Origin: an uncultured Bacilli bacterium
GTDB lineage: Bacteria; Bacillota_I; Bacilli_A; RF39; UBA660
NCBI GenBank assembly: GCA_934162195.1
Contig: CAKPHO010000005.1
Coordinates: 6,515-70,514 of the forward strand
Direction: 5' to 3'
Length of the DNA: 64,000 nucleotides
The notes below the pieces were generated by a model that saw nothing but the letters and a program-made list of their open reading frames with translations, ran no database searches and was not told where the DNA came from. The position numbers were made by a program, and so were the translations under genes. Shown here piece by piece: positions 1,722 to 61,095 of the stretch (the first letter of the stretch is position 1; every line of letters begins with the position of its first letter).

Positions 1722-2001
1722 TTAATTATTAGTGTAAAGGTACAATTATTTGTGCCTTTCTTTTTTGTGAAATATGGGGGTATATTTAATCATACTATAA
1801 TATTAAATGAAAAAATAAACACAAAGAAGCTAGGCTTTTAAATAACCTAGATTTCTTTGCGTTTTTTTGCTGTGCCTTTATAGGAAGGGAGTTGTTGTAT
1901 AAATACATAAAACACAAAAAATATATATTATGACTGGATGTTTATAATAAATAAAAAAGGGTATAATTAGAATGTATAATAGAGAGAGGAGTAAGAAATA
2001 T
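1722..2001. repeat. Conserved upstream module, copy 1: G5 tract + TTTAATCATACTATAAT + hairpin/T-run + second -10 (GGGTATAATTA) + RBS
   Basis: ~80% nucleotide identity to 26056..26369 and partial identity to 53545..53720; G-run 1776..1780, TATAAT 1796..1801, hairpin ~1820..1860 with T7 at 1863..1869. Confidence 0.7.
1737..1769 (+). terminator. Putative intrinsic terminator after ftsX
   Basis: AAAGGTAC/GTGCCTTT imperfect stem followed by CTTTTTTG. Confidence 0.4.
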
Positions 2002-3618
2002 ATGAAAAAGAAAGGATTTACTTTAATAGAATTACTAGCGGTAATAGTAGTATTAGCAATAATAGCGTTAATTGCAACCCCAATAGTAACAAGAGTAATA
2101 AGTTCTAGTAAGGATTCTGCTAATAAAATAAGTGCAAGTAATTTTGCGTCTAAAGCAAATGAATATGTAATAGAAGAAAGAATGAATGGAAATATAAAAA
2201 GTGGCAATATTTTTGATGAAGTATCAGAAAGAATGAATGGTAAGAAACCTACTTCGGGAGTAGTTTATTCTGATGATAATGGAAACATTGCTTTAGCTTT
2301 AGTATTTGATAATAGATGTTATACAAAAGAGTATAATAGTGATGAAATAAAAACAGCTGACATTAATGAATGTCATGCTCCAGTAGACTATTTAGCTCTT
2401 GGAAATACAAATAATGATACAGAATTAACATTCTTTAATGGACCAATTAAAAAAGGTAGCGTTGAAAAAATAATATTTGTAAATAACACTAATGTACCTA
2501 CAGATGCAATAGGAAGTTGGAATGCGAGTGCAAGTGGAGATGGAAAAGTAATTGCTTGGTATAAAGATGAAGATAATAATAGTTTATATGAAGTATATAT
2601 AGGTGAAAATGGTGGAGTAAAAGCTAATCCTGATTCATCTAGATTATTTAGTTATTTTTCAAATTTAGTTAGTTTGGATTTAAAATATCTTGATACATCA
2701 AGTGTGACAGATATGTCTTTAATGTTTAATAACTGTTCAAAATTAACTACGCTTGATTTAAGTAGTTTTGATACGTCACAAGTGACAAGTATGCGAGGAA
2801 TGTTTCAATTGTGCACTAATTTAACAGCATTAGATTTAGGAAACTTTAATACTTCCAATGTTACAAGCATGAGGAATATGTTTAATGAATGTTCAAGTTT
2901 AACTACTTTAGATTTAAGTAATTTTGACACGTCAAATGTTACGACTATGTATGCTATGTTCCAAAAAACTTCAAATTTAACGATGTTGAATGTAAGTAGT
3001 TTTGATACATCGAAAGTAACCGATATGGCTTTTATGTTTAGTAAATGTCTTAATTTGCCAGAATTAGATTTAAGTAATTTTGATACTTCAAATGTAACAA
3101 ATATGAGCGCTATGTTTCAAAGAGATTCTAGTCTTACATCACTAGATGTAAGTAAGTTTAATACATCAAAAGTAACAGATATGTCTAGAATGTTCAGCTT
3201 AGTAAGAAATGTTAAATCATTAGACGTTTCTCACTTTGATACCTCAAAAGTAACTAATATGACTTGGATGTTTAATGAATGCAATAATTTAGAATCTTTA
3301 AATTTAAAAAGTTTTAATACAAAATTAGTAACAGATATGAGTTATATGTTTGAAAACTGTTATAATTTGACTGATTTAGATTTGAGCAGTTTTGAAACTA
3401 GCAAGTTACAAAATATGGAGCACATGTTTGGTGGTAATTCTAAATTGACAAATATTAATTTATCAAAGGCAACATTTACTGCAGTAACTCAATATTCTGA
3501 GATGTTTAATGGTTGTGGATTAACTAGTATTGCAGTAAAAGATGATGATGCAAAAACATTTATTGATGCTAGATTAAAAGAGGCAAATATTAATATTGAA
3601 GCAACAAAAGCAAACTAA
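2002..3618 (+). CDS. Prepilin-type (class III signal) N-terminus fused to ~23 consecutive DUF285/BspA-type leucine-rich repeat units
   Basis: Start at the RBS-supported ATG (GAGAGGAG, then 9 nt), in-frame with the ORF beginning at 1972. N-terminus KKGFTLIELLAVIVVLAIIALIATPIV is the canonical G|FTLIE prepilin cleavage/methylation motif. The C-terminal module is ~23 repeats of roughly 26 aa of the pattern LxxLDLSNFDTSNVTxMxxMF (DUF285 / mycoplasma-BspA LRR type), one of the recognised DGR target domain classes. Confidence 0.8.
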   Translation: MKKKGFTLIELLAVIVVLAIIALIATPIVTRVISSSKDSANKISASNFASKANEYVIEERMNGNIKSGNIFDEVSERMNGKKPTSGVVYSDDNGNIALALVFDNRCYTKEYNSDEIKTADINECHAPVDYLALGNTNNDTELTFFNGPIKKGSVEKIIFVNNTNVPTDAIGSWNASASGDGKVIAWYKDEDNNSLYEVYIGENGGVKANPDSSRLFSYFSNLVSLDLKYLDTSSVTDMSLMFNNCSKLTTLDLSSFDTSQVTSMRGMFQLCTNLTALDLGNFNTSNVTSMRNMFNECSSLTTLDLSNFDTSNVTTMYAMFQKTSNLTMLNVSSFDTSKVTDMAFMFSKCLNLPELDLSNFDTSNVTNMSAMFQRDSSLTSLDVSKFNTSKVTDMSRMFSLVRNVKSLDVSHFDTSKVTNMTWMFNECNNLESLNLKSFNTKLVTDMSYMFENCYNLTDLDLSSFETSKLQNMEHMFGGNSKLTNINLSKATFTAVTQYSEMFNGCGLTSIAVKDDDAKTFIDARLKEANINIEATKAN

Positions 3619-3648: not shown

Positions 3649-3692
3649 AAAAAATGGAAAGTTTAAAAATGTATGGACTTTTCATTTTTTTT
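3649..3692 (+). terminator. Intrinsic terminator downstream of the DUF285 pilin-like gene
   Basis: Imperfect hairpin AAATGGAAAGT...ACTTTTCATTT followed by T8. Confidence 0.5.
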
Positions 3693-3715
3693 GCTATATA
3701 ATAAAAATCAATTTT

Positions 3716-8610: not shown

Positions 8611-10248
8611 ATGAAGAATAATAAGGGTTTTGCAATAAGTAGTGTTGTTTATGCAATGCTAATCCTTTTTTTAGGACTTATCTTATTAATTTTAGGAAAT
8701 TTAGCTAGCAGAAAAGCTATGTTCGATAAAGAAAAAAATGAGATACTTATGAGATTTAATAATTACGGATCTAGTAAAAAATTTGAAAATGGTGAAGTGG
8801 TATACTTTAATGTGACGTCAGGAGAATTATGTTCGTCATCAGAATATACAGAAACCCAAAGTAATACAGGGGTAAAAGAAGGGTGTATGAAGTTTTATGC
8901 TTTCAATGATGATGGAAAAAATAAAGTAAATTTAATATTAGACCATAATACCACACAATATGCGGCATGGAATTCAAGTGGAAGTAATTCAAGTGGTCCA
9001 AAAGATTTGTTAGACCAATTAAAAGCAGATACAAGATTATGGAAAGGAACAGAACCCCCATCAAACTATACGATGGATCAAACAATACAGAAAAGTAATG
9101 CAAATTATAAAATTAATTATAGTACATATAAAGCAAGATTAATAACGGCTCAAGAAATAGCTAAAATAACTGGTTATAAAGAATGGGATGAAAAAAGTAG
9201 TACTAATGTATATTATTTTGATACCAAAACATCATCACCAAGTCCTACCTGCAAAAGTGGAAACACAACTGGATGCAAATATGGATGGTTATATGACAGA
9301 ACATACACAAGTTGTATAGATTATGGATGCTTGAATAATTCAAATGTATATATGATTGGTTATTGGACCGCATCATCATATAGTAATTCATCTAGTAGTG
9401 CATGGTATGTAAATTATGGTGGCTTTGTGGTTAGTGGTGGTGTTAGTACAACAAATTATTTTGGTGTTCGTCCGGTTATAGAAGTATTAAAATCAAAATT
9501 AGTAAAAACATATGCCAATGGAGAAGTAGTATATTTTAATGTAGATAATGGAACAAAATGTACATCCAGTGAAGCAGTAAGTACAACAGGAACAAAGAGT
9601 GGATGTATGAAATTCTATGCCTTTAATGATGTTGGAAAAGATACAGTAAATTTAATCTTAGATCATAATACAACAGCAACAGTAGCATGGAATAATACAT
9701 ATAAAAATGATAGTGGTAGCATAGCCAATGCTAAAGGTCCAAAAGAATTATTAGACAAATTAAAAAGTGATACATCATCATGGAAAGGAACAATAACGCC
9801 AGCAAATTATACAATGGATCAATCAAATCAACCAAGCAATGCAAAATATACAATAGATTATAGTAGTTATAAAGCAAGATTAATAACAGCACATGAAATA
9901 GCTCAAATAACAGGAAATACGACATGGGATGAAAAGACTGCAAATAATATTTATTATTTAGACAGCAAAACAACTACTGCAAGTGCCACATGTAAAAGTG
10001 GGAATACAAGTGGATGTAGTTATGGTTGGCTATATGATAGAACATCTACTTCATGTACAACATATGGATGTTTAAATAATTCAGATAAAGAAACACACGG
10101 TTATTGGACTGCCTCTTCTCGTGCCGGCTACTATAGCCTCGCTTGGCGCGTGGGCAACGATGCTTACGTGAGCAGCGACGGCGTTTTCAATTCAAGCAGC
10201 GAAGGTGTGCGCCCAGTTATAACTGTCTTGAAATCTAGCCTTATATAA
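8611..10248 (+). CDS. Pilin-like membrane-anchored protein with two tandem DUF1566/Lcl-like modules
   Basis: N-terminus KGFAISSVVYAML is a hydrophobic helix, prepilin-like but without Glu+5. Two ~270-aa internal repeats (NGEVVYFNV...GCMKFYAFND...YKARLITA.EIA.ITG...GVRPVI.VLKS). Shares its C-terminal motif with the paralogs 18290, 26370 and 53768. Confidence 0.75.
   Translation: MKNNKGFAISSVVYAMLILFLGLILLILGNLASRKAMFDKEKNEILMRFNNYGSSKKFENGEVVYFNVTSGELCSSSEYTETQSNTGVKEGCMKFYAFNDDGKNKVNLILDHNTTQYAAWNSSGSNSSGPKDLLDQLKADTRLWKGTEPPSNYTMDQTIQKSNANYKINYSTYKARLITAQEIAKITGYKEWDEKSSTNVYYFDTKTSSPSPTCKSGNTTGCKYGWLYDRTYTSCIDYGCLNNSNVYMIGYWTASSYSNSSSSAWYVNYGGFVVSGGVSTTNYFGVRPVIEVLKSKLVKTYANGEVVYFNVDNGTKCTSSEAVSTTGTKSGCMKFYAFNDVGKDTVNLILDHNTTATVAWNNTYKNDSGSIANAKGPKELLDKLKSDTSSWKGTITPANYTMDQSNQPSNAKYTIDYSSYKARLITAHEIAQITGNTTWDEKTANNIYYLDSKTTTASATCKSGNTSGCSYGWLYDRTSTSCTTYGCLNNSDKETHGYWTASSRAGYYSLAWRVGNDAYVSSDGVFNSSSEGVRPVITVLKSSLI
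10126..10248 (+). other. GC-shifted 3' segment, candidate DGR variable repeat (VR)
   Basis: Codon usage switches abruptly to GCC/GGC/CGC/AGC/GAC/AAC in a 28% GC gene. Aligns codon-for-codon with 54640..54772 of the paralog (the only template-like partner in this window), differing mainly at codon positions 1 and 2 with C retained at position 3. Confidence 0.5.
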
Positions 10249-10294: not shown

Positions 10295-10502
10295 ATAAAA
10301 ACTTTGAGCTTGAGGAGTAAACTAAAGCGTTTTAAAGAGAGTCTATGGTTGGTGGAAATAGATAAATTAATTAGTTGAAGGTAGCAAGCTAGTTGAATAT
10401 CTAAGTAAATAGGATATTACGTATATTATGCGTTAAATAATTAAGGTGTAGAAATACATAAATTAAGGTGGTACCACGTAAACTCACGTCCTTATCTGGG
10501 AT
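10295..10502 (+). promoter_or_regulatory. T-box riboswitch leader upstream of valS
   Basis: AGAGAG box; conserved T-box sequence AAGGTGGTACCACG at ~10468..10481; terminator hairpin ACTCACGTCC/GGATGTGAGT followed by a T-run immediately before the RBS. Confidence 0.7.
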
Positions 10503-18289: not shown

Positions 18290-19336
18290 ATGAAGAAAAA
18301 AGGCTTTACTTTAATAGAATTACTAGCGGTAATAGTAGTATTAGCTATCATTGCTCTAATAGCAACACCAATAGTAATGAGTGCAATTGAAAAATCAAAG
18401 AAAGGAGCAGCTGAGAGAAGTGCGGATAGCTACATCAAACAAGTAGAAACAGCAGTAGCAACAGAACGACTAGATGGAAATGAAGTCCAAAATGGAACAT
18501 ACGAAATAGATGGTGAAGGGAATTTAACAGGAAAAGGATTGCCAAACAATAAATTAGTTATTGACATGAAAGGAAATAAACCAATATCTGGAACAATAAC
18601 AATAAAAGATGGACAAGTAACAAATGATTCTAAGATGACAATTGGTGATTATGATGTTAAATATAATGAAGATAAAAAGAAATATGAAGCAACAAAAAGT
18701 GGTGGGACAAATCCAGATACACCATCAGTAAAAACATTATGTACTAAAAAAGAAGGAGTAGATTTAAATAATTTAGCTTCTGGAAATGAATTTACTTGTG
18801 AATTAGGAGATAATGATGCAAAAACATTTTATGTCTTAGAAACAAATGAGGATAATGTATCATTAATAATGAATGCTAATATTGATTCAAATGGAAAAGC
18901 TATAACGCCAGATAACATTCCAGATGATAAAGGATTAGTTGCATGGTCGGAAGACGGAAGCAATCATAAGGATGATGATGAATCAGCACAAGCAGTAACA
19001 GCAAAGGCATACTTATCATCAAGTACAACAAATTGGACTAAACTAAATCAATCACAAATTAAATTACCAACGGCAAGTCAGATTGCAGCAACGGCAGGGA
19101 CAACATTTGATGGTGTTAGTATGATAATGGGTTTACCAGCATGGATATATGATAACATGGATGGTACAGCAAATGCTGTATCTGGAATACCTGCTTATTG
19201 GACATCAACACCTTATAAATCTAATGATACTAATGCTTGGGGTGGTGGTGCTTACTCCAATCTAAGTAATTATAGTAGCGCAAGTACTTACGGTATACGT
19301 CCAGTAATAACTGTCTTAAAATCTGATCTTTCGTAA
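18290..19336 (+). CDS. Modular pilin-like protein: prepilin N-terminus + DUF1566/Lcl-like C-terminal module
   Basis: MKKKGFTLIELLAVIVVLAIIALIATPIVM; the first ~45 codons are nearly identical at nucleotide level to 26370 and 53768; C-terminal motif YWTSTPY...AWGGGAY...YGIRPVITVLKSDLS. Confidence 0.8.
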   Translation: MKKKGFTLIELLAVIVVLAIIALIATPIVMSAIEKSKKGAAERSADSYIKQVETAVATERLDGNEVQNGTYEIDGEGNLTGKGLPNNKLVIDMKGNKPISGTITIKDGQVTNDSKMTIGDYDVKYNEDKKKYEATKSGGTNPDTPSVKTLCTKKEGVDLNNLASGNEFTCELGDNDAKTFYVLETNEDNVSLIMNANIDSNGKAITPDNIPDDKGLVAWSEDGSNHKDDDESAQAVTAKAYLSSSTTNWTKLNQSQIKLPTASQIAATAGTTFDGVSMIMGLPAWIYDNMDGTANAVSGIPAYWTSTPYKSNDTNAWGGGAYSNLSNYSSASTYGIRPVITVLKSDLS

Positions 19337-21674: not shown

Positions 21675-21695
21675 TCATTTCTGAAGATTATTTTC
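21667..21695. terminator. Bidirectional terminator hairpin (GAAAATAATC-9nt-GATTATTTTC) containing both convergent stop codons
   Basis: Perfect 10-bp inverted repeat; the TAA (21672..21674) of the + gene and the TGA (21675..21677, minus strand) of the fic-like gene lie inside the stem. Confidence 0.6.
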
Positions 21696-22298
21696 TTTTT
21701 CTTTTTGAACTATAGCTTTCATAAATTCCATTTCTAACATGCTAGGATATATGTATCTTTGTACTGTTCCCATTAAAAGATTTTTACTATCCATTTTAGT
21801 ATAATCAATATCTAGTGGACCACAAGGAAGGTTTTTGCTTTTCTCTAAAACAAATTCTCTCATAAATATTCTTATTGTTCTTCCATTTCCTTCTCTAAAG
21901 GGATGAACCATAATTAAATCGTGATAAAAAGGAGCAATATAAAAGGCTAATTCTGGAATTGAAGAAATATTTCCAATCTTATTTAAATCATTAAGAATTT
22001 CATCTAAAGATTTAGTGATATTTTGTGGATTGCAGAAACTAGTCCTATCTTTTCCTAAAGTGCATAATCTTATTTCTCCTGCAAAAGGATATATTTTTCC
22101 AAAAACAAATTTATGAATTTTTTTTAAATCTTCAATATCAAAATTTTTACATATTGGTTTTAAATATAGCGTAGCCATTGTTTTTCTAGTAATAGCTCTT
22201 TCTGTTTCTTTTAATTTTTCTAAGCTTGTAATATTTAAATTATTTTTTAAAACATCTGTTCCTTCAATTAAATAATCATCCCAATGATCTATTTCCAT
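21675..22298 (-). CDS. Fic/Doc-family protein (AMPylase-type)
   Basis: Canonical Fic motif HPFREGNGRTIR (HxFx[D/E]GNGRxxR); start taken at MEIDHW, supported by an AGGATGG RBS. Confidence 0.8.
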   Translation of the reverse strand: MEIDHWDDYLIEGTDVLKNNLNITSLEKLKETERAITRKTMATLYLKPICKNFDIEDLKKIHKFVFGKIYPFAGEIRLCTLGKDRTSFCNPQNITKSLDEILNDLNKIGNISSIPELAFYIAPFYHDLIMVHPFREGNGRTIRIFMREFVLEKSKNLPCGPLDIDYTKMDSKNLLMGTVQRYIYPSMLEMEFMKAIVQKEKENNLQK

Positions 22299-22443
22299 TA
22301 TAACCATCCTTAATTTTAGTCTTTTTTTTGTTATTGTCTTCGGTTTTTGTTTTAATGTCAACACTTACTTCTTCAAAGCTAATATTTGCATCTGCCTGTC
22401 TAAGCGCTTCTTTAAGTTTTTTAAGCCTTGCAATCTTATCCAT
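22276..22443 (-). CDS. Small Lys-rich ORF (55 aa) overlapping the fic start; possible partner or antitoxin-like protein
   Basis: ATG preceded by AAGGAAG; MDKIARLKKLKEALRQADANISFEEV...; overlaps the first 23 nt of fic; not in the ORF track (<60 aa). Confidence 0.3.
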   Translation of the reverse strand: MDKIARLKKLKEALRQADANISFEEVSVDIKTKTEDNNKKKTKIKDGYNGNRSLG

Positions 22444-26055: not shown

Positions 26056-26369
26056 TTGTTGTTGTATACTAAATATTATAAAGGTAATGATAGTATGGTT
26101 AAACAGAAAGTATAAAATTAACTTAATAACTCAAATTTGAACTGTGAAGTGGGTGGTATATTTAATCATATTATAAAATTAAATAAAAAAAGCACAAAGA
26201 AACTAGAACTATAAAAGGTCTAAGTATCTTTGTTTTTTTTGCTAAACTTTTATAAAGAAAATGTTGTATAAGTACATAAAGCATCAAAAATATGTATTAT
26301 GACTAGATGTTTATTTTAAATAAAAAAGGGTATAATTAAAATGTAAATCGTATAAGGAGGTAAGAAAAA
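26056..26369. repeat. Conserved upstream module, copy 2 (G3TG2 variant of the G-tract)
   Basis: Aligns with 1722..2001 over ~250 bp; GGGTGG 26151..26156 sits where copies 1 and 3 have G5/G9; TTTAATCATATTATAAA box; degenerate hairpin with T8 (26232..26239); GGGTATAATTA; GGAGG RBS. Confidence 0.7.
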
Positions 26370-27311
26370 ATGAAAAATAAAAAAGGATTTACACTTATCG
26401 AATTACTAGCGGTAATAGTTGTGTTAGCAATAATAGCACTAATAGCAACACCAATAGTAATGAATACAATAAAAAATGCGAAGAAAGGGGCAGCTGAAAG
26501 AAGTGCCGATAGCTACATAAAACAAGTAGAAACAACAGTAGCAGAAGCAAGGTTAGATAATAAAACAGTACCAGATGGAACATATCAAATAGATGAAGAA
26601 GGAAATTTAACAGGAGCAGGCTTACCAGATGGTAAATTAAAAATAGAAATGAATGGAAATAAGCCAACTTCTGGGATAATAGCAATATCAAATGGAGAAG
26701 TTTCACAAACAGGAACAACGATGACAATAGGAGAATATAATTTACGTTATAATGAAACATCAAAAAGCTATACTGCTGAAGTAGCAATTAAATTATGTAA
26801 AAAAGCATCAAGTGTAAATTTAAGTGATTTAAAATTAGGTGACGAATTTACATGTGATTTAGGTGATGAAGAAACAACTAAAAACTTAGTATTCTATGTG
26901 TTAGAAAAAAATGGTTCACAAGTATCTTTGATTATGAATAAAGTATTTACAACTCCAGCTGGAGATAAAGTTCCATATTCAATGAAAGCTAATGTATTTA
27001 AACTTTTCAAATATACTAAACTAGATGAATCACAAATTACTTTACCAAGTGGAGAGCAAATTGCCGCAGCAAGTAATAATACAACTTGGACACCAAGCGG
27101 TTCTAATACAGCTTTAGTTACAAATCAAATGCCAGATTGGTTAAAAACAAATTTAGATGTTACTGGTACATTCTGTTATTGGACATCAACAGCTTATGAT
27201 TCTAGTAAACAATGGGGCGCTGGATTAAAGGGGTTATATGCTGAAACAGCAGGTAATGCAACTTGTGGATTCCGTCCGGTTATAACAGTTTCAATATCTG
27301 CTTTAGGATAG
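26370..27311 (+). CDS. Modular pilin-like protein: prepilin N-terminus + DUF1566/Lcl-like C-terminal module
   Basis: MKNKKGFTLIELLAVIVVLAIIALIATPIVM; YWTSTAYDSSKQWGAG...CGFRPVITVSISALG. Confidence 0.8.
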   Translation: MKNKKGFTLIELLAVIVVLAIIALIATPIVMNTIKNAKKGAAERSADSYIKQVETTVAEARLDNKTVPDGTYQIDEEGNLTGAGLPDGKLKIEMNGNKPTSGIIAISNGEVSQTGTTMTIGEYNLRYNETSKSYTAEVAIKLCKKASSVNLSDLKLGDEFTCDLGDEETTKNLVFYVLEKNGSQVSLIMNKVFTTPAGDKVPYSMKANVFKLFKYTKLDESQITLPSGEQIAAASNNTTWTPSGSNTALVTNQMPDWLKTNLDVTGTFCYWTSTAYDSSKQWGAGLKGLYAETAGNATCGFRPVITVSISALG

Positions 27312-47700: not shown

Positions 47701-47786
47701 ATTAATAAAAACCAATGAGAAATTCATTGGTTTTTTTGTACTATAAAAAGGAAATCGAATACTTTTGTGGAATATTAGAAGTGAAA

Positions 47787-48647
47787 GGAGAAAAAATGAA
47801 AGAAGATAAAATACATTTAATAAATAAGATATTTAATAATAAAATGATAAGAACTGTTTGGAATAAAGAAGAAGAGAAGTATTATATTAGTGTGGTGGAT
47901 GTAGTTGGAATTCTATCAGAAAGTAAAGATAGTAGAAAATATTGGAATTGGTTAAAAAACAAATTGTTAAATGAAGAAAAATTTGAAACGTCTAGTATTA
48001 CTAGACAGTTGAGATTAAAAGCACAAGATGGAAAATATCGTTTAACTGATGTATGTGATATAGAAGAAATGTTTCGAATAATAGAATCAATACCTAGTAA
48101 AAATGCTGAGCCAATAAAACAGTGGTTAGCAAGATTAGGACGTGAAAGAATAGATGAGACATTTGACCCATCACTAGCAATACAAAGATCAATAGATTTG
48201 TATAGAAAAAAAGGATATGAAGAAGAATGGATAATAAGAAGAATAAAAGGTATTCAAGATAGAAAAAAATTGACAGATGTGTGGAATGAAAATGGAGTAA
48301 CGAAAGAAATAGAGTATGCAATATTAACAAATGAAATATATAAGGAATGGTCAGGAATGGATGCTGGTGAATATAAAGAATATAAAGGACTTAGAAAAGA
48401 ATCTTTAAGAGATAATATGTCTGATTTAGAAGTAGTACTTGCTGATATTGGTGAAATTACAACTAGAGAACTTGCCAAAAAGTATAAACCATACGGATTA
48501 GATAATAATCTAAAAATGGCTAAAGAAGGTGGAAAAGTTGCTAAAAATACACGAAATGATATAGAAAAAAGATTGCGTGAGTCTGTTATTAAAAAGGATA
48601 ATTTATTGAAATATAAATATAACAAAAATAAAATAGAAACAAAGTAA
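47787..48647 (+). CDS. Bro-N domain protein with DinD-like C-terminal region
   Basis: MIRTVWNKEEEKYYISVVDVVGIL fits the Bro-N pattern; C-terminal KGL...SLRDNMSDLEV parallels the DinD C-terminus. Confidence 0.5.
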   Translation, partial: GEKMKEDKIHLINKIFNNKMIRTVWNKEEEKYYISVVDVVGILSESKDSRKYWNWLKNKLLNEEKFETSSITRQLRLKAQDGKYRLTDVCDIEEMFRIIESIPSKNAEPIKQWLARLGRERIDETFDPSLAIQRSIDLYRKKGYEEEWIIRRIKGIQDRKKLTDVWNENGVTKEIEYAILTNEIYKEWSGMDAGEYKEYKGLRKESLRDNMSDLEVVLADIGEITTRELAKKYKPYGLDNNLKMAKEGGKVAKNTRNDIEKRLRESVIKKDNLLKYKYNKNKIETK

Positions 48648-48689: not shown

Positions 48690-48910
48690 TTATATTGAAA
48701 GACAAACGAAGAGAGTAGTAATAATAAATTATGTTTAGAGAAGAAGTGGTTGGTGAAAACTTCTAATAAAATATTATGAACTTGCTTTTCTAGTTGCTTA
48801 TAGCCGTAGTTCTGCGTTAAAGATTTGAGAGTGTAATAAAATATTATGAAATAAGGTGGTACCGCGATCAATCGTCCTTATATTTATAATATTTTTGTTT
48901 TTAAGGAGGA
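48690..48910 (+). promoter_or_regulatory. T-box leader upstream of the small-membrane-protein/leuS operon
   Basis: AAGAGAG box; T-box sequence AAGGTGGTACCGCG 48853..48866; no canonical GC-rich terminator; CCTTAT (48876..48881) is complementary both to the upstream ATAAGG and to the SD TAAGGAGG. Confidence 0.55.
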
Positions 48911-52670: not shown

Positions 52671-53489
52671 ATGAGTAATATAGAAGAATATACTGAAAAA
52701 ATTTTTGAAGATATTAAACATATTGATAATTCAAGTAATGAATATTGGGAAGCAAGAGAACTACAGCAAATACTTGGTTATAAAGAATGGAGATATTTTT
52801 CTAGTGTTATAGAAAAAGCTCAAATAGCTTGTTCTCAAAGTAATAACAACATTAATTCCCATTTTGGTGTAAACACCAAAATTGTGAAGACAGGGGTTTC
52901 AACTAAAAATATCATTGATTATAAGCTAAGTAGATATGCTTGTTATTTGATAGTTCAAAATGCTAATCCTAAATTTAAAACTGTTGCGTTAGGCCAGACA
53001 TACTTTGCAATACAAACAAGAAGAATGGAGTTAACAGAAGCTGAATATAGTAAATTATCAGAAGATGAAAAGAGATTGTATAGAAGAAAACAAACAAAAG
53101 ATGGTAATAAAGTTTTGTATAAAATAGCAAGAGAAAAAGGAGTTAAAAACTTTGATAAATTTACAAATGCAGGTTATAAAGGTTTATACAATGGTGAAAC
53201 AGCAAACGATATTGCTAAAAGAAAAGGCTTAAGGTATAGAGAAGATATATTAGATAATATGGGAAGTACTGAATTGGGAGCTAATGTGTTTAGAATAACT
53301 CAAACTGAAGCTTTATTAGAAAAACAAGAAGAAAAAAGCGAAAATATGGCAACTGATACTCATTATAAAGTAGGTAAAGCTATAAGAAAAGTTATAGAAG
53401 AATTAGGTGGTACTATGCCTGAAGATTTACCAACTCCAGATAAATCAATTAAAGAAATTGAAAAAAAGGAAACAAAATCTTTGATGTAA
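52671..53489 (+). CDS. dinD: DNA-damage-inducible protein D-like (DinD family)
   Basis: Close match to the E. coli DinD pattern: LSRYACYLIVQNANP, GQTYFAIQTRRMEL, DNMGSTELGANVFRITQTE. Confidence 0.75.
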   Translation: MSNIEEYTEKIFEDIKHIDNSSNEYWEARELQQILGYKEWRYFSSVIEKAQIACSQSNNNINSHFGVNTKIVKTGVSTKNIIDYKLSRYACYLIVQNANPKFKTVALGQTYFAIQTRRMELTEAEYSKLSEDEKRLYRRKQTKDGNKVLYKIAREKGVKNFDKFTNAGYKGLYNGETANDIAKRKGLRYREDILDNMGSTELGANVFRITQTEALLEKQEEKSENMATDTHYKVGKAIRKVIEELGGTMPEDLPTPDKSIKEIEKKETKSLM

Positions 53490-53514: not shown

Positions 53515-53544
53515 TTGACAATAACAAACAATAAATTGTATAAT
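53515..53544 (+). promoter_or_regulatory. Strong sigma-A promoter (TTGACA-18-TATAAT) ~250 nt upstream of pilin-like gene 53768
   Basis: TTGACA 53515..53520; TGTATAAT 53537..53544. Confidence 0.55.
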
Positions 53545-53720
53545 AAATACAGTAAAGGTAGCGATAGTATGGTTAAAGTATTCGTAGAACATAACTTCAA
53601 AAATAATAGCAGAAACACCAACCTGGGGGGGGGTTATTTAATCATACTATAATACTAAATACATATAAAAACACAAGAAAACTAGACTTGAAATAGTCTA
53701 GGTTTCTTTGTGTTTTTTAT
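53545..53720. repeat. Conserved upstream module, copy 3 (G9 variant)
   Basis: GTAAAGGTAGCGATAGTATGGTTAAAG block shared with copy 2; G9 53625..53633; TTTAATCATACTATAAT (TATAAT 53648..53653); hairpin 53671..53713 with a T-run. Confidence 0.7.
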
Positions 53721-53767
53721 TGTACCTTTACAAGTAAGTAAATCTAAATAAAAGAAGGAGGAGTATT

Positions 53768-54772
53768 ATGAAATTAAAAAATAAACACGGATTTACACTT
53801 ATAGAATTACTAGCGGTAATAGTAGTATTAGCAATAATCGCACTAATCGCAACACCAATAGTAATGAATACAATAAAAAAATCAAAGAAAGGAGCAGCTG
53901 AGAGAAGTGCGGATAGCTACATAAAACAAGTAGAAGTAGCAGTAGCAGAAGAACGACTAAATAAAAATGAAGTACTAGAAGGAGAATATCAAATAACAAG
54001 TGATGGAAATCTATGTAGAGATAAAAGTGCAAGTTGTTCAGATGATAACAAAATAAAAATAGAAATGAGCGGAACAAAACCAACATCAGGGAAAATAAAG
54101 ATAACAAATGGAAGTGTTGATCAATCATCATCAAGTATGATAATAGGAGATTATACTGTTTCATATAATTCTACTAAGAAAACATATGAAGCAATAGAGA
54201 AAGGAAATACACCACAAGTAGAAGTATTGTGTACAGCAAAAACAGCAGCAACAAAAGGAAATGTACCACAAGGACAATTTGCCTATGGAGATGGATATAC
54301 ATGTGAATTAGGTGATAATGATGCAAAAACATTCTTTGTACTAGAAACAAATGGAGATAATGTATCATTAATCATGGATAGAAACATAGATTCAAATGGT
54401 AAAGGAACAACAAGTGGAGGAAATACAGTAGCTTGGTGTAAATCAGGAAGTAATAATACATGTGCTGCAGATAGAGCATTAGAATACTTAAAAACAAGTA
54501 CAACAGGATGGACAAAATTAACAGAATCACAAATAAGCTTACCTTCATATGATCAAATATATAAAGCTGCGGGTAATAAAACTTCGGGATTACCAACATG
54601 GCTATATGAAAATAATGTATATGGTTATTGGACATCAACCCCTCATGCGTCTAACTCTAACCGCGCTTGGCTTGTGAACTACCACGGCAACTTGAACTTC
54701 AACTTCGTCGACTTCGACGACAGCTATGGCGTTCGTCCAGTTATAACTGTCTCAAAATCACAATTAGGATAA
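53768..54772 (+). CDS. Modular pilin-like protein: prepilin N-terminus + DUF1566/Lcl-like C-terminal module with a GC-shifted 3' end
   Basis: NKHGFTLIELLAVIVVLAIIALIATPIVM; first ~55 codons nearly identical to 26370 at nucleotide level; C-terminus YWTSTPHASNSNRAWLVNYHGNLNFNFVDFDDSYGVRPVITVSKSQLG. Confidence 0.8.
   Translation: MKLKNKHGFTLIELLAVIVVLAIIALIATPIVMNTIKKSKKGAAERSADSYIKQVEVAVAEERLNKNEVLEGEYQITSDGNLCRDKSASCSDDNKIKIEMSGTKPTSGKIKITNGSVDQSSSSMIIGDYTVSYNSTKKTYEAIEKGNTPQVEVLCTAKTAATKGNVPQGQFAYGDGYTCELGDNDAKTFFVLETNGDNVSLIMDRNIDSNGKGTTSGGNTVAWCKSGSNNTCAADRALEYLKTSTTGWTKLTESQISLPSYDQIYKAAGNKTSGLPTWLYENNVYGYWTSTPHASNSNRAWLVNYHGNLNFNFVDFDDSYGVRPVITVSKSQLG
54640..54772 (+). other. GC-shifted, AAC/NNC-codon-rich 3' segment, candidate DGR variable repeat (VR)
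   Basis: 15 of 16 consecutive codons end in C (aac tac cac ggc aac ttg aac ttc aac ttc gtc gac ttc gac gac agc); composition differs sharply from the rest of the gene; aligns codon-for-codon with 10126..10248, the only template-like partner in this window. Confidence 0.5.
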
Positions 54773-54776
54773 AAGA

Positions 54777-54810
54777 AAATGGTAAGTCGATGACTTGCCA
54801 TTTTTAGTTT
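54777..54810. terminator. Bidirectional terminator/hairpin between the pilin-like gene and tetR (AAATGGTAAGTC-GAT-GACTTGCCATTT + T-run)
   Basis: 11-12 bp stem with one G.U pair, immediately 3' of the candidate VR; the T-run overlaps the tetR stop. Confidence 0.6.
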
Positions 54811-55367
54811 ATATTATCTGGAATTAATATTTTTAAGTATTCCATAATTTGATCTTTAGTATACTTAGAACTATCACTTAACCATTCAACACCTAAGTTA
54901 ATAACCCCACCTAAATAGAATTTAGCAATTATATCACTAGGTATCTTTTTACTAATACTATCAGTTTTAATTTTATTTAAAATATCTTCATTAACAACAC
55001 TTAGTAAAATATCCATCATAATACTATTACGATTGTTAATCATGATAGAGCTATAAACATTTCTTTTGCTTTCAATATGATCTAAAAATAGTTCGATTAA
55101 TTTTATATAGTATTCTCTAGTGTTTAGATTATTGCTATTTTTATTAAGTTCATTAACAAATTCTTCTTTTAGATTACTAATAAAGTCTACTAGTAATTCA
55201 TATTTATCTTCGTAGTGAGCGTAGAAAGTAGAACGATTAATCATGGCTTTAGAACAAATATCAGAAACTTTTATTTCTTCAAAAGTTTTATCTTTCATTA
55301 AATCTATTAAGGCTTGATAGAGTAAGTTTTTAGTCTTAACAACGCGTAAATCTTTTTTCTTTTCCAT
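54804..55367 (-). CDS. TetR/AcrR-family transcriptional regulator
   Basis: N-terminal HTH LRVVKTKNLLYQALIDLMKDKTFEEIKVSDICSKAMINRSTFYAHY; divergent from the transporter gene. Confidence 0.8.
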   Translation of the reverse strand: MEKKKDLRVVKTKNLLYQALIDLMKDKTFEEIKVSDICSKAMINRSTFYAHYEDKYELLVDFISNLKEEFVNELNKNSNNLNTREYYIKLIELFLDHIESKRNVYSSIMINNRNSIMMDILLSVVNEDILNKIKTDSISKKIPSDIIAKFYLGGVINLGVEWLSDSSKYTKDQIMEYLKILIPDNIN

Positions 55368-60211: not shown

Positions 60212-61081
60212 GTGAATAATTATGAAAAAATTATGGAAAAAATAAAACGTGATCAAAGGTGTAGGCCTAAAAATTGTCCTGGGCCCACAGGACCACAAGG
60301 TCCACAGGGAATACCTGGTATTCAAGGACCACAAGGTGAAATAGGTCCTCAGGGAATACCTGGTAAGAGTGTTTCAATTCTAGGGGAATATAAAACTTAT
60401 GAAGAGTTAATAAAAAATCATCCTACAGGTAATGTTAATGATTCGTATTTAGTAAATGGTGATTTATACGTTTGGACAGAAAATGATGGCAAGTGGGATA
60501 ATGTTGGAAGAATAGCTGGACCAACAGGGCCTAAAGGAGATATTGGCCCTAAAGGAGAAAAAGGGGAAGATGGACCAACGGTATTACGTTCAGCTTATTT
60601 GGTTACTTTTAATGATGGTAATAATAAAGATGGAATAGAGGTTCCGAGAAATACAAATTTATCAATAACTAGAAAAGAGTTGGATGTTACTGATTTAGTG
60701 TCACTAAATACTGATAATACTATTAAGTTTAATGTTCCTGGATATTATAAAGTATCTTTTGTTGTATCAGCAACTATAAAAAATGAGAGTAATAAGTTTA
60801 ATCAAGATACTGATTTTATAACTTTGGGATTTAAGCAAAAAGATACAGACTTAATTTATGTAGGAGCAAGCAAGTGGGTAAATAGTGAGTTGGGAACGCA
60901 AATTTTTGGGCATGGTATTGTGGCAGTAACTAATACCAATAATTTATATGAACTTACTAATTTAGGTAGCAAGACAATTTATTTAAAAGCTCCAGATTTA
61001 AATAATATTATGTCATCTTCTTATTTTACTAATTCATTATTAACTATTGTTATTGATTATTTAGGAATAAAACAAGTTTAA
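60212..61081 (+). CDS. Collagen-like repeat protein with a globular C-terminal domain (BclA-like)
   Basis: G-X-Y repeats GPTGPQGPQGIPGIQGPQGEIGPQGIPGK and GPTGPKGDIGPKGEKGEDGPT; ~170-aa C-terminal non-collagen domain; probable GTG start after a GAGGAGG RBS. Confidence 0.7.
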   Translation: MNNYEKIMEKIKRDQRCRPKNCPGPTGPQGPQGIPGIQGPQGEIGPQGIPGKSVSILGEYKTYEELIKNHPTGNVNDSYLVNGDLYVWTENDGKWDNVGRIAGPTGPKGDIGPKGEKGEDGPTVLRSAYLVTFNDGNNKDGIEVPRNTNLSITRKELDVTDLVSLNTDNTIKFNVPGYYKVSFVVSATIKNESNKFNQDTDFITLGFKQKDTDLIYVGASKWVNSELGTQIFGHGIVAVTNTNNLYELTNLGSKTIYLKAPDLNNIMSSSYFTNSLLTIVIDYLGIKQV

Positions 61082-61095
61082 GGATAAGGTGTTTG

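What the first reader, a model, noticed from the sequence alone, without database searches (positions are those of the whole stretch)
2002..3618. Prepilin signal fused to a long array of DUF285/BspA-type leucine-rich repeats (a DGR target domain class)
After the pilin-like N-terminal helix and a ~110-aa linker, the protein consists of ~23 consecutive repeats of about 26 aa (…LxxLDLSNFDTSNVTxMxxMFxxCxxL…), the mycoplasma/BspA-like LRR type (DUF285) normally found on cell-surface adhesins. A pilin-anchored LRR adhesin would display a binding module on a type IV filament. DUF285/BspA-repeat proteins are also one of the recurrent DGR target families alongside DUF1566/C-lectin targets, so this gene is a third candidate diversification target in the window. 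The repeat array spans ~2640..3560 with a 78-nt periodicity at DNA level and could also vary by repeat-number recombination. This gene also carries copy 1 of the poly-G upstream module. I cannot identify a compositionally distinct VR segment inside it from sequence alone; unlike the two DUF1566 genes it shows no obvious GC-shifted tail.
Basis: partly seen in the sequence, partly recalled or inferred. Interest (0 to 1): 0.55.

Follow-up and report, generated by a model that had tools for sequence, protein, structure and literature searches.

The report
Type IV pilin carrying a leucine-rich-repeat adhesin
This gene from an uncultured human-gut Bacilli bacterium encodes a type IV pilin fused to 11 leucine-rich repeats, probably a strain-variable adhesin shown on a pilus; the domain combination is already catalogued, nothing links it to a diversity-generating retroelement, and its poly-G "module" is the broken remnant of a phase-variable switch.

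Summary
The fusion is real. Gene 2002..3618 (538 aa) has a prepilin signal (MKKKG|FTLIE), a full small pilin module (residues 1-127), an LRR N-cap (128-214), 11 PARCEL/DUF285 26-aa repeats (215-500), not about 23, and a C-cap. The AlphaFold2 model has pLDDT 93.

The DGR reading is not supported. The window has no reverse transcriptase, no template-like partner and no A-biased or GC-shifted tail. Strain differences include heavy synonymous change across about 1.9 kb.

The gene is a sharply bounded hypervariable island (1776..~3675). Two same-species strains carry 13- and 10-repeat alleles in the same ftsX-lon slot at 77-79% aa identity, against flanks of 97-99.6%. Elsewhere in the species, LRR and non-LRR pilin payloads swap between chromosomal slots.

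The pilin+DUF285 architecture is already listed among "modular pilins" (Raynaud 2021, Dataset S1), so this is a new, unstudied member of a known kind.

The most interesting by-product is the poly-G module. In intact copies it is a promoter, a leader-peptide ORF containing the G-run, and a terminator. One of three reading frames runs into the terminator, and near-identical loci differ only in G-run length. This matches the S. gallolyticus pil1 attenuator. In this gene the promoter and uORF start are deleted.

The parts
1736..1765 (+). Intrinsic terminator of ftsX. Sequence identical to the sister strains ends shortly after it, at 1775.
   Evidence: Terminator scan. BLAST breakpoints at 1775/1776 against L001 and L029.
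1776..1780 (+). G5, the remnant of the hypermutable G-run of the leader switch. It is also the left edge of the hypervariable island and the endpoint of the roughly 97-nt deletion that removed the promoter, SD and uORF start.
1785..1798 (+). 3' arm TTTAATCATACTAT of the leader helix. In intact copies it holds the frame-A and frame-B stop codons of the leader ORF. Here its 5' partner is missing.
   Evidence: (D13).
1817..1868 (+). Leader terminator hairpin (CACAAAGAAGCTAGG...CCTAGATTTCTTTGCG) followed by a T7 run. It is retained in this copy.
   Evidence: The stem shows compensatory changes across 21 copies.
1869..2001 (+). 'Type-B' proximal segment, shared at 79% with 26262-26382 and with relatives. 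It holds a conserved GGGTATAAT (TATAAT at 1962-1967) and the SD GAGGAG (1986-1991). No canonical -35/-10 pair was detected.
   Evidence: (D10).
2002..2382 (+). Pilin module, residues 1-127. It comprises the leader peptide MKKKG (2002-2016), mature F+1 and E+5, the alpha1 helix (residues 8-61), a 4-stranded sheet (85-120), and conserved Cys106/Cys124.
2383..2643 (+). N-terminal cap of the LRR solenoid, residues 128-214. Its WNASASG..AWYKDEDNN..YEVYIG..GGVKANPDS..LF motif is conserved in the family.
2644..3501 (+). 11 tandem 26-aa PARCEL/DUF285 leucine-rich repeats of 78 nt each. Consensus: MFxxCSNLTxLDxSxFDTSxVTxMxx.
3502..3618 (+). Degenerate 12th repeat and helical C-cap (residues 501-538), plus the stop codon.
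3654..3692 (+). Weak hairpin (ATGGAAAGT/ACTTTTCAT) plus a T-run, a possible gene terminator. The right edge of the hypervariable island lies at about 3675, and the lon promoter TGGACT-17-TATAAT overlaps it (3674-3702).
   Evidence: Sequence read. Promoter scan. Sliding identity.

Best explanation
Gene 2002..3618 encodes a modular type IV pilin: a small pilin module acts as carrier, fused through a short junction to an 11-repeat PARCEL/DUF285 LRR solenoid as payload.

Inferred mechanism:
- The protein is inserted in the membrane by its hydrophobic alpha1N segment.
- A prepilin peptidase cleaves it after Gly5.
- A type IV filament machinery encoded elsewhere in the genome incorporates it, probably at the tip or sparsely along the filament.
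- The LRR surface is then presented as an adhesin or ligand-binding module in the gut.

Shown variation:
- The gene is one of at least 8 scattered prepilin genes in the window that share a near-identical 5' end.
- It forms a sharply bounded, strain-hypervariable cassette.
- It varies by whole-cassette or allelic replacement, by gain and loss of 78-nt repeats, and by substitutions concentrated at the non-scaffold 'x' positions of the repeats.
- It does not vary by a DGR.

Regulation:
- In relatives, such genes are driven through a phase-variable leader made of a promoter, a leader ORF with a G-run, and a terminator.
- In this strain that switch has been deleted down to the G-run.
- The gene is therefore either expressed from a weak proximal promoter or is currently silent.
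For: Architecture:
- N_methyl, TIGR02532, DUF285 (E=1e-63) and PARCEL (10 stretches) all hit.
- AF2 model: pLDDT 93, pTM 0.84, with helix 8-61, a 4-strand sheet and then a solenoid.
- Foldseek matches LRR ectodomains and InlJ at probability 1.0.
- The alpha1 region matches solved pilins by sequence.
- All 8 window prepilins align over a roughly 120-aa pilin module, including three stand-alone 115-121-aa pilins.
- 15 of the top 120 homologues carry N_methyl plus DUF285. NCBI names two of them 'BspA family leucine-rich repeat surface protein [Bacilli bacterium]'.

Strain variation:
- L001 (Lon 96.6% aa, FtsE/FtsX 99%) and L029 (Lon 99.6%, FtsX 99%) hold 591-aa and 511-aa alleles in the same slot at 77-79% identity. 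The 591-aa allele differs from this one by two clean 26-aa indels.
- The divergent block runs exactly from 1776 to about 3675, with flanks at 95-100%.
- dS is 0.56 in the gene against 0.11-0.24 in the flanks.
- Scaffold positions are 88-91% identical and x positions 51-56%, with dN/dS 0.07-0.10 against 0.37-0.47.

Slot swaps:
- Pilin-LRR genes occupy the lepA slot (L033, LepA 97.3%) and the TetR/MMPL slot (L030, MMPL 94.8%), where the window has non-LRR pilin fusions.
- L002 has a non-LRR fusion in the lon slot.

Precedent: modular pilins are documented, and IPR012902-IPR005046 architectures are listed in PMC8179133 Dataset S1.

Leader: and PMC3894217.
Against: - No prepilin peptidase, assembly ATPase or platform gene is in the window or in any fetched locus. 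Filament incorporation is therefore inferred, not shown.
- Foldseek of the pilin module alone gave no significant PDB hit, with best E=0.7.
- No canonical promoter lies upstream of this copy, and the leader terminator is retained, so the gene may be silent in this strain.
- The ligand is unknown.
- dN/dS never exceeds 1, so diversifying selection is not demonstrated. Old alleles under relaxed constraint fit the data equally well.
Confidence: 0.72

Rival explanations
1. DGR variable protein. A reverse transcriptase elsewhere in the genome would rewrite codons in the 3' part of the LRR gene from an adenine-rich template repeat.
For: Only circumstantial. The protein is a surface binding protein in a gut bacterium, and some large Bacteroides DGR variable proteins contain LRRs as accessory domains.
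Against: - No RT is present among all ORFs of at least 120 aa in the window or among the called genes of 7 homologous loci.
- No TR-like repeat exists in the window.
- The tail shows no AAC/NNC or GC signal.
- The C-terminus is an LRR cap, not a C-type lectin or Ig fold.
- Strain differences span 1.9 kb and include dS 0.56-0.8.
Confidence: 0.03
2. Membrane-anchored surface protein that is not part of a filament. The class III signal and alpha1N helix would serve only as an export and anchor device, or the protein would be a pseudopilin-type substrate. The LRR would be displayed at the membrane or wall rather than on a pilus.
For: - No filament machinery is seen in 64 kb, despite 8-9 prepilin-like genes scattered singly among housekeeping genes.
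- PARCEL proteins are known with many different membrane-targeting devices (PMC2996958).
- A roughly 400-aa payload is bulky for packing into a filament.
Against: - A complete pilin head with a conserved Cys pair is kept under purifying selection (dN/dS 0.13). That would be unnecessary for a mere anchor.
- Three stand-alone small pilins with the same module exist in the window and could build the filament.
- Bulky modular pilins are experimentally shown on T4P in S. sanguinis.
Confidence: 0.17
3. Silent archival cassette in this strain. With the promoter, SD and uORF start deleted and the terminator kept, the gene would not be expressed. It would serve mainly as a recombination donor or acceptor for other pilin-LRR loci. 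This is compatible with the best explanation at the species level.
For: - The deletion endpoint lies at the G-run relative to L001.
- No sigma70-like site lies in 1650-2001.
- A third strain, L029, has a 1.7-kb insertion in the same leader.
- Cassettes move between slots.
Against: - The 538-codon ORF is intact, with a good SD and purifying selection on scaffold positions.
- A conserved proximal segment with GGGTATAAT is shared by eight loci, including this one, and could be a promoter.
Confidence: 0.2

Closest known systems
Modular type IV pilins: S. sanguinis PilB (vWA) and PilC (lectin), and the InterPro architecture IPR012902-IPR005046 (Raynaud et al. 2021, PMC8179133)
   Same: A class III signal and a small pilin module are fused by a short junction to a non-pilus binding domain. 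Dataset S1 of that paper already lists pilin+IPR005046 architectures, with 1 to 3 or more copies. That IPR005046 corresponds to DUF285 is from my own knowledge. BspA-type LRR (IPR026906) is among the 15 commonest architectures.
   Different: - The payload is a PARCEL LRR solenoid, which has never been studied on a pilin.
- The gene stands alone between housekeeping genes rather than in a pil operon.
- It belongs to a multi-slot paralogous family with a shared leader.
- No machinery has been identified here.
PARCEL/DUF285 surface proteins of Mollicutes and other microbes (Roske et al. 2010, PMC2996958)
   Same: A 25/26-residue amphipathic repeat in variable-number tandem arrays. Hydrophobic scaffold positions are conserved and hydrophilic positions are variable. 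The proteins are membrane-targeted, strain-variable and shuffled within genomes. That paper also notes poly-G tracts for phase variation in some M. agalactiae PARCEL lipoproteins.
   Different: The anchor here is a prepilin module, a topology not mentioned in that paper, which has 0 occurrences of 'pilin'. DNA dyad symmetry is not significant here. The G-run of this family lies in a leader ORF, not in the structural gene.
LRR adhesins such as Listeria InlJ, and BspA of Tannerella forsythia
   Same: A right-handed LRR solenoid that displays a binding surface on the cell exterior. InlJ (3bz5) is among the Foldseek matches. That BspA is an LRR adhesin is from my own knowledge and the papers listed.
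   Different: TM-scores are low (about 0.2) and sequence identity is 12-15%. The anchoring differs (LPXTG or outer membrane against pilin). The repeat type is 26-aa PARCEL rather than 21-22-aa internalin.
S. gallolyticus pil1 leader-peptide attenuator (Danne et al. 2014, PMC3894217), the closest match for the upstream 'poly-G module'
   Same: The layout is promoter, then a short leader ORF holding a slippage-prone repeat, then an intrinsic terminator, then the pilus gene. In the OFF frames the stop lies 20-31 nt (39 bp in pil1) upstream of the hairpin. In the ON frame the stop lies inside the hairpin.
   Different: - The repeat is a G homopolymer (mode G9), not GCAGA units.
- It controls type IV modular pilins, not a sortase pilus.
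- It is present in many copies per genome.
- A 14-bp helix pairs the uORF start region with the region holding the two early stops.
- It is untested experimentally, and in the gene under review it is deleted.
DGR variable proteins (Mtd, TvpA, Bacteroides pilus-tip targets)
   Same: These are surface ligand-binding proteins of gut and host-associated microbes that vary between strains.
   Different: They require an RT and a TR, and the VR lies in a C-terminal C-type lectin (or Ig) fold with A-specific changes. None of these features is found here.

Membership tests
Type IV pilin (class III signal peptide, IPR012902/TIGR02532) | Short basic leader ending in Gly, hydrophobic +1 residue (Phe), Glu at +5, and about 20 hydrophobic residues | tested here: met
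   MKKKG|FTLIELLAVIVVLAIIALIATPIV. PF07963 scores 30.3 bits (cut-off 21.2) and TIGR02532 32.2 bits (cut-off 16.3).
Type IV pilin (class III signal peptide, IPR012902/TIGR02532) | Lollipop fold: an alpha1 helix of about 53 residues packed on an antiparallel beta-sheet head | tested here: inconclusive
   The AF2 models show helix 8-61 and four strands at 85-120 (pLDDT 80-93), plus a conserved Cys106/Cys124 pair. Foldseek of the module alone against PDB gave no significant hit, with best E=0.7. Sequence hits to solved pilins cover only alpha1.
Type IV pilin (class III signal peptide, IPR012902/TIGR02532) | Processed by a prepilin peptidase and polymerised by a type IV filament machinery | not testable with these tools
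   No such genes occur in the window. No T2SS-E ATPase signature was found in 829 kb of fetched loci. The rest of the genome could not be fetched.
DUF285 / PARCEL repeat proteins (PF03382, TIGR02167) | HMM match above the curated cut-off | tested here: met
   PF03382 scores 212.9 bits (cut-off 25). TIGR02167 scores 302.5 bits (cut-off 30) in 10 stretches.
DUF285 / PARCEL repeat proteins (PF03382, TIGR02167) | Tandem 25/26-residue amphipathic repeats in variable number | tested here: met
   There are 11 repeats of exactly 26 aa. Same-species alleles have 13 and 10 repeats.
DUF285 / PARCEL repeat proteins (PF03382, TIGR02167) | Dyad symmetry of the repeat-coding DNA (the 'palindromic' in PARCEL) | tested here: inconclusive
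   The summed best-palindrome score is 72, against 67.2 +/- 3.7 in shuffles. Only 4 weak inverted repeats were found.
Modular pilins (Raynaud et al. 2021) | [quoted passage not shown] | tested here: met
   The same architecture is listed in Dataset S1.
Modular pilins (Raynaud et al. 2021) | Presented by the filament and mediating a filament function such as adhesion | not testable with these tools
   This needs purified pili or genetics in an uncultured organism.
DGR variable protein | Reverse transcriptase (and accessory gene) in the locus | tested here: not met
   No RVT domain occurs in any ORF of at least 120 aa in the window or among the called genes of 7 homologous loci. A remote RT elsewhere in the genome cannot be excluded.
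DGR variable protein | TR/VR pair differing at template adenines | tested here: not met
   No partner exists in the window; the best outside hit is 38 bits. The strain-to-strain pattern is not A-specific and includes high dS.
DGR variable protein | VR embedded in a C-terminal C-type lectin or Ig-like fold | tested here: not met
   The C-terminus is an LRR plus a helical cap.
Phase-variable leader-peptide attenuator (S. gallolyticus pil1 type), tested for the upstream module | Promoter, SD and short leader ORF upstream of the structural gene | tested here: not met
   In this copy (1776-1868) the promoter, SD and ATG are deleted. In intact copies the feature is met. Examples are window 53515-53767, L001 and L030. 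Those copies have TTGACA-17/18-TATAAT, AAAGGA and an ATG. Frame 0 is stop-free in 22 of 23 distinct copies, against 0 of 23 in the other two frames.
Phase-variable leader-peptide attenuator (S. gallolyticus pil1 type), tested for the upstream module | Slippage-prone repeat inside the leader ORF, with length polymorphism that changes the frame | tested here: met
   Uninterrupted runs range from G6 to G11 with a mode of G9. Some copies are interrupted, and the relic here is G5. L040 (G8) and L075 (G9) are 98.4% identical over 1.8 kb, and L030 (G11) and L031 (G9) are 99.6% identical over 5.7 kb. In each pair the only gap is the G-run. This applies to family members; the window's copy 1 is a G5 relic.
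Phase-variable leader-peptide attenuator (S. gallolyticus pil1 type), tested for the upstream module | Intrinsic terminator downstream, with one frame extending the leader ORF into it | tested here: met
   The terminator hairpin is conserved and has compensatory pairs. Frames A and B stop 31 and 20 nt before it, and frame C stops 30 nt inside it.
Phase-variable leader-peptide attenuator (S. gallolyticus pil1 type), tested for the upstream module | Translation-dependent antitermination that switches expression | not testable with these tools
   This needs reporter fusions or frame-resolved metatranscriptomics.

The most novel reading that the evidence does not exclude
An uncultured human-gut Bacilli species maintains a multi-locus repertoire of stand-alone modular type IV pilin cassettes. 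Payloads include LRR, a 'GxRPVIT'-tailed lectin-like type and at least two other kinds. Each cassette sits in its own chromosomal slot. Most are gated by a homopolymer-G leader-peptide attenuator that switches ON in one of three frames. Payloads are exchanged between slots and strains through the shared leader and 5' pilin sequence. Together this would be a combinatorial, phase-variable adhesin-display system on a type IV filament. The gene under review would be one cassette whose switch was deleted.
Probability: 0.4. Interest if true: 0.7.

Novelty: new member of a known kind. Interest (0 to 1): 0.5.

Why it matters
Modular pilins are thought to explain how simple type IV filaments gain many functions, but only a few have been studied, and none carries an LRR/PARCEL module. 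This locus gives a clean natural example in an abundant but uncultured gut lineage. Within-species allelic diversity, repeat-number change and payload swapping all point to host- or phage-driven selection on a filament-borne adhesin.

The associated leader extends the only experimentally described 'repeat-in-leader-peptide plus terminator' phase switch (S. gallolyticus pil1). The extension is to a homopolymeric tract, to type IV pilins and to a multi-copy family. The model can be tested directly with metagenomic reads and simple reporter constructs.

The work also removes a false lead: there is no evidence for DGR diversification of this gene.

Tried and rejected
1. DGR. I searched for an RT by Pfam in all ORFs of at least 120 aa, looked for a TR by the repeat finder and word-7 blastn, and checked AAC/NNC and GC in the tail. 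All were negative.
2. Known riboswitch or RNA family for the upstream module, for example c-di-GMP riboswitches that control pilins in clostridia. Rfam found only two T-boxes in the window at gathering thresholds. In L001 nothing hit the module at E<=10.
3. Poly-G as a promoter-spacer switch. Rejected because a canonical TTGACA-17/18-TATAAT lies about 80 nt upstream and the G-run lies inside a conserved ORF.
4. The 14-bp inverted repeat as an invertible-promoter site. Rejected because the arms are only about 50 nt apart. All but one of the substitutions seen in the arms are wobble-compatible (G.U). The arms also coincide with the uORF start and stops.
5. Covariation proof of the leader helix. 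This was weak, because my search pattern fixed both arms. Only the terminator shows compensatory pairs.
6. PARCEL dyad symmetry. Not significant.
7. Structural match of the pilin module to solved pilins. No significant Foldseek hit.
8. Type IV machinery. None in the window, and no T2SS-E signature in fetched loci.
9. Gene-wide positive selection. dN/dS stays below 1 even at the variable positions.
10. Canonical promoter for this gene copy. None found.
11. Pfam DUF1566 on the neighbouring pilin fusions. Not detected at E<=0.001; there is only a sub-threshold DUF6273 hit on 53768.
Full report
**Context**

The window is a 27%-GC Firmicute chromosome segment. Almost all genes lie on the + strand, there are two T-box leaders and no tRNAs. 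The gene under review sits between ftsE/ftsX and lon.

A scan with Lon found a 97%-identical Lon in CAKOTU010000004.1, 'MAG: uncultured Bacilli bacterium' from a Hadza gut sample. An 81% relative is labelled 'uncultured Tenericutes bacterium UMGS688'. Sporulation-type genes (SpoVID-N/LysM in the window; CotE and Coat_F in related loci) and murein genes show a walled, probably spore-forming organism.

**Checking the observation**

The ORF is 1972..3618. The biologically sensible start is the ATG at 2002, which follows a GAGGAG Shine-Dalgarno and gives MKKKG|FTLIELLAVIVVLAIIALIATPIV.

- Pfam gives DUF285 (E=1e-63) and N_methyl (E=2.7e-7).
- NCBIfam gives the PARCEL repeat TIGR02167 (E=1.4e-92, 10 stretches) and the prepilin domain TIGR02532. 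All are above their curated cut-offs.
- The 78-nt periodicity is real.

Laying the protein out in register shows 11 canonical 26-residue repeats (residues 215-500, nt 2644-3501). The consensus is MFxxCSNLTxLDxSxFDTSxVTxMxx. A degenerate repeat and a helical cap follow.

The supposed linker is two structured parts:
- Residues 1-127 are a complete small pilin module. They align with all seven other prepilin genes of the window, three of which are stand-alone 115-121-aa pilins.
- Residues 128-214 are a conserved LRR N-cap.

The AlphaFold2 model built on 16 family members is confident (pLDDT 93, pTM 0.84). It shows helix 8-61, four strands at 85-120, then a regular solenoid and a C-terminal helix. 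Foldseek against PDB returns LRR ectodomains and Listeria InlJ at probability 1.0 but with low TM-scores. The pilin module modelled alone (pLDDT 80) found no significant structural neighbour. The pilin fold therefore rests on topology, the signal motif and alpha1 sequence matches to solved pilins.

**The DGR hypothesis**

- I Pfam-scanned every ORF of at least 120 aa in the window. None is a reverse transcriptase.
- Window-wide repeat finding and a word-7 blastn of the LRR and tail found no template-like copy. The best hit outside the gene is 38 bits.
- The last 50 codons show no excess of AAC/AAT or NNC codons, and GC is flat.
- Seven homologous loci from other assemblies have no RT among their called genes.
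- In the DGR paper I read, VRs are uniformly in C-terminal C-type-lectin folds and LRRs appear only as accessory domains.

The decisive argument comes from strain comparison, described next.

**Strain comparison**

L001 and L029 are same-species contigs. Against the window, L001 has FtsE/FtsX at 99% aa and Lon at 96.6%. L029 has FtsX at 99% and Lon at 99.6%. Both keep the ftsX-[pilin-LRR]-lon arrangement. Their alleles are 591 aa (13 repeats) and 511 aa (10 repeats), against 538 aa (11 repeats) here.

The alignment with L001 has exactly two gaps, each of 26 residues. The family alignment shows further unit-sized gaps.

Amino-acid identity is only 77-79%. At DNA level the divergent block starts exactly at 1776 and ends near 3675, with flanks at 95-100%.

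Both dS and dN are raised across the block:

| Region | dS | dN |
|---|---|---|
| Pilin-LRR gene | 0.56 | 0.128 |
| Flanking genes | 0.11-0.24 | 0.004-0.015 |

Within the LRR, scaffold positions are 88-91% identical and the x positions 51-56%. The corresponding dN/dS is 0.07-0.10 against 0.37-0.47. This is the signature of old, recombining alleles of a surface protein, with unequal crossing-over among repeats. It is not A-templated mutagenesis of a short VR.

**A cassette family**

The window has eight genes with a bona fide prepilin motif, at 2002, 13809, 18290, 26370, 31731, 37481, 41711 and 53768. They are scattered singly among housekeeping genes, and five share an almost identical first 27 residues. 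A ninth gene (8611) has a degenerate GFAISS N-terminus.

In closely related genomes a given slot can hold a different payload:
- A pilin-LRR lies upstream of lepA in L033 (LepA 97.3% identical), where the window has the 348-aa non-LRR fusion.
- A pilin-LRR lies upstream of TetR/MMPL in L030 and L031 (MMPL 94.8%), where the window has the 334-aa fusion.
- A 'GIRPVITISKSNLS'-tailed fusion lies upstream of lon in L002, where the window has the LRR gene.

Other pilin-LRR genes sit next to cotE/ackA, SDF transporter or murD genes.

**The upstream 'poly-G module'**

Aligning the upstream regions showed the following layout in intact copies:
- A canonical TTGACA-17/18-TATAAT promoter.
- A conserved AAAGGA.
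- A 14-bp helix whose 5' arm is GTAGTATGGTTAAA and whose 3' arm is TTTAATCATACTAT.
- The G-run, just 5' of the 3' arm.
- A long hairpin plus T-run terminator.

No Rfam family matches it. A pattern scan of metagenomes yielded further instances, for 25 in all. In all 17 cases where downstream sequence is available, a prepilin gene follows, with at least four payload kinds.

The key observation is that the ATG inside the 5' arm opens a short ORF that runs through the variable loop into the G-run. This frame is stop-free in 22 of 23 distinct copies. The other two frames are stop-free in none, though part of that contrast comes from conserved stops. The peptide is MVKvvskkLakiPTWGG..., and the P-T-W is kept by synonymous codons in a divergent copy.

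Past the G-run there are three possible frames:
- Frame A stops at a TAA inside the 3' arm, 31 nt before the terminator (14 copies, typically G9).
- Frame B stops 20 nt before the terminator (6 copies).
- Frame C reads about 21 more codons and stops at a TAG in the 3' strand of the terminator stem (4 copies).

Two pairs of near-identical contigs differ by a single indel, and that indel is in the G-run. L040 (G8, frame C) and L075 (G9, frame A) are 98.4% identical over 1.8 kb. L030 (G11, frame A) and L031 (G9, frame B) are 99.6% identical over 5.7 kb.

This reproduces the logic shown experimentally for the S. gallolyticus pil1 pilus. There, GCAGA-repeat slippage in a leader peptide decides whether ribosomes run into a premature terminator and so relieve termination (PMC3894217). 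That the same mechanism operates here is an inference.

**What this means for the gene under review**

Its copy of the module is a relic. Relative to L001, about 97 nt are missing, from the -35 box to the G-run. That removes the promoter, SD, ATG and 5' arm. It leaves G5, the 3' arm and the terminator. In L029 the same leader is split by a 1.7-kb insertion carrying two minus-strand ORFs, one with an HTH_38 domain.

Between the terminator and the start codon lies a conserved 'type-B' segment that holds GGGTATAAT and is shared by eight loci. It contains no canonical -35/-10 pair. Whether the gene is expressed in this strain is therefore open. The intact ORF and the purifying selection on scaffold residues argue that it is functional at the species level.

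**Comparison with what is known**

Modular pilins are an established concept, based on S. sanguinis PilB and PilC. Dataset S1 of that paper already lists IPR012902-IPR005046 architectures; that IPR005046 corresponds to DUF285 is from my own knowledge. NCBI already annotates relatives as 'BspA family leucine-rich repeat surface protein'. The PARCEL paper describes variable-number arrays on lipoproteins and transmembrane proteins but no pilin anchor.

The gene is thus a new, uncharacterised member of a catalogued architecture. The leader switch is a new variant of a mechanism known from one organism.

**Limits**

- No filament machinery could be located, because the genome beyond the window could not be fetched.
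- The ligand is unknown.
- Covariation support for the leader helix is weak, because my search pattern fixed its arms.
- G-run differences between assemblies could in principle include homopolymer consensus errors. Even so, in both contig pairs the G-run indel is the only gap across kilobases of alignment.

Noticed in passing
window 53515-53767 (upstream of the 53768 pilin gene): An intact copy of the leader switch. It has TTGACA (53515-53520), TATAAT (53539-53544), AAAGG (53554-53558) and a uORF ATG at 53569. The G9 run is at 53625-53633, the uORF stop (frame B) at 53650-53652, and the terminator at about 53667-53719. The predicted state is OFF or low.
   Followed up: yes
window 26066-26369 (upstream of the 26370 pilin gene): A degenerate copy of the same leader. 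The uORF is cut to MVKQKV*, the G-run is interrupted (GGGTGG at 26151-26156) and the terminator stem is weakened. It looks like a decayed or locked switch, followed by the same 'type-B' proximal segment as gene 2002.
   Followed up: partly
L040 vs L075; L030 vs L031: Two pairs of near-identical metagenome contigs (98.4% over 1.8 kb and 99.6% over 5.7 kb). In each pair the only indel is the leader G-run: G8 vs G9 and G11 vs G9. The indel puts the leader ORF in different frames.
   Followed up: yes
L029:4001-5780: A 1.7-kb insertion inside the leader uORF of the ftsX-lon slot in a same-species strain. It carries two minus-strand ORFs (233 aa with no Pfam hit; 51 aa with HTH_38) and may be IS-like. 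L068 has a 12-nt in-frame extra segment (ATTATAAACTCC) at the equivalent place that shares sequence with the right end of this insertion, so it may be an excision scar.
   Followed up: no
window 13809, 18290, 26370, 31731, 37481, 41711, 53768 (all + strand): Seven further prepilin genes (115 to 690 aa) lie singly between housekeeping genes such as valS, lepA, tmk, mltG, murE/F, mraY and pyk. No pilus assembly genes are nearby. Five share the N-terminus KKGFTLIELLAVIVVLAIIALIATPIV.
   Followed up: partly
window 18290-19336, 26370-27311, 53768-54772 and 8611-10248: These payloads end in a conserved, locally GC-richer G(V/F/I)RPVITV(S/L)KS tail. Pfam does not call DUF1566 on them at E<=0.001; there is only a sub-threshold DUF6273 hit on 53768. 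No RT or template repeat for them exists in the window either, so their proposed DGR-target status is also unsupported.
   Followed up: partly
window 8611-10248: A 545-aa ORF with a degenerate prepilin-like N-terminus (MKNNKGFAISS, no Glu at +5). It has an internal tandem duplication of a roughly 245-aa domain (DNA repeats 741 nt apart at 76% identity), and each copy ends in GVRPVI(E/T)VLKS. It has no Pfam or NCBIfam hit.
   Followed up: no
window 60212-62970: Two adjacent ORFs with collagen-like G-x-y triplet repeats (a Pfam Collagen hit on the first). Related loci have a BclA_C-type collagen protein, which suggests exosporium-like filaments.
   Followed up: no
window 10295-10496 and 48702-48882: T-box leaders upstream of a class I tRNA synthetase with a Val-tRNA-synthetase C-terminal arm (probably valS, 10503) and of one with a leucyl editing domain (probably leuS, 49261). 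These are ordinary.
   Followed up: no
window 21675-22364 (-), 47715-48647, 52671-53489: A Fic/DOC gene is one of only two Pfam-supported genes on the minus strand in the window (the other is the TetR gene at 54804-55367). There are also two Bro-N domain proteins, one immediately upstream of the intact leader switch.
   Followed up: no
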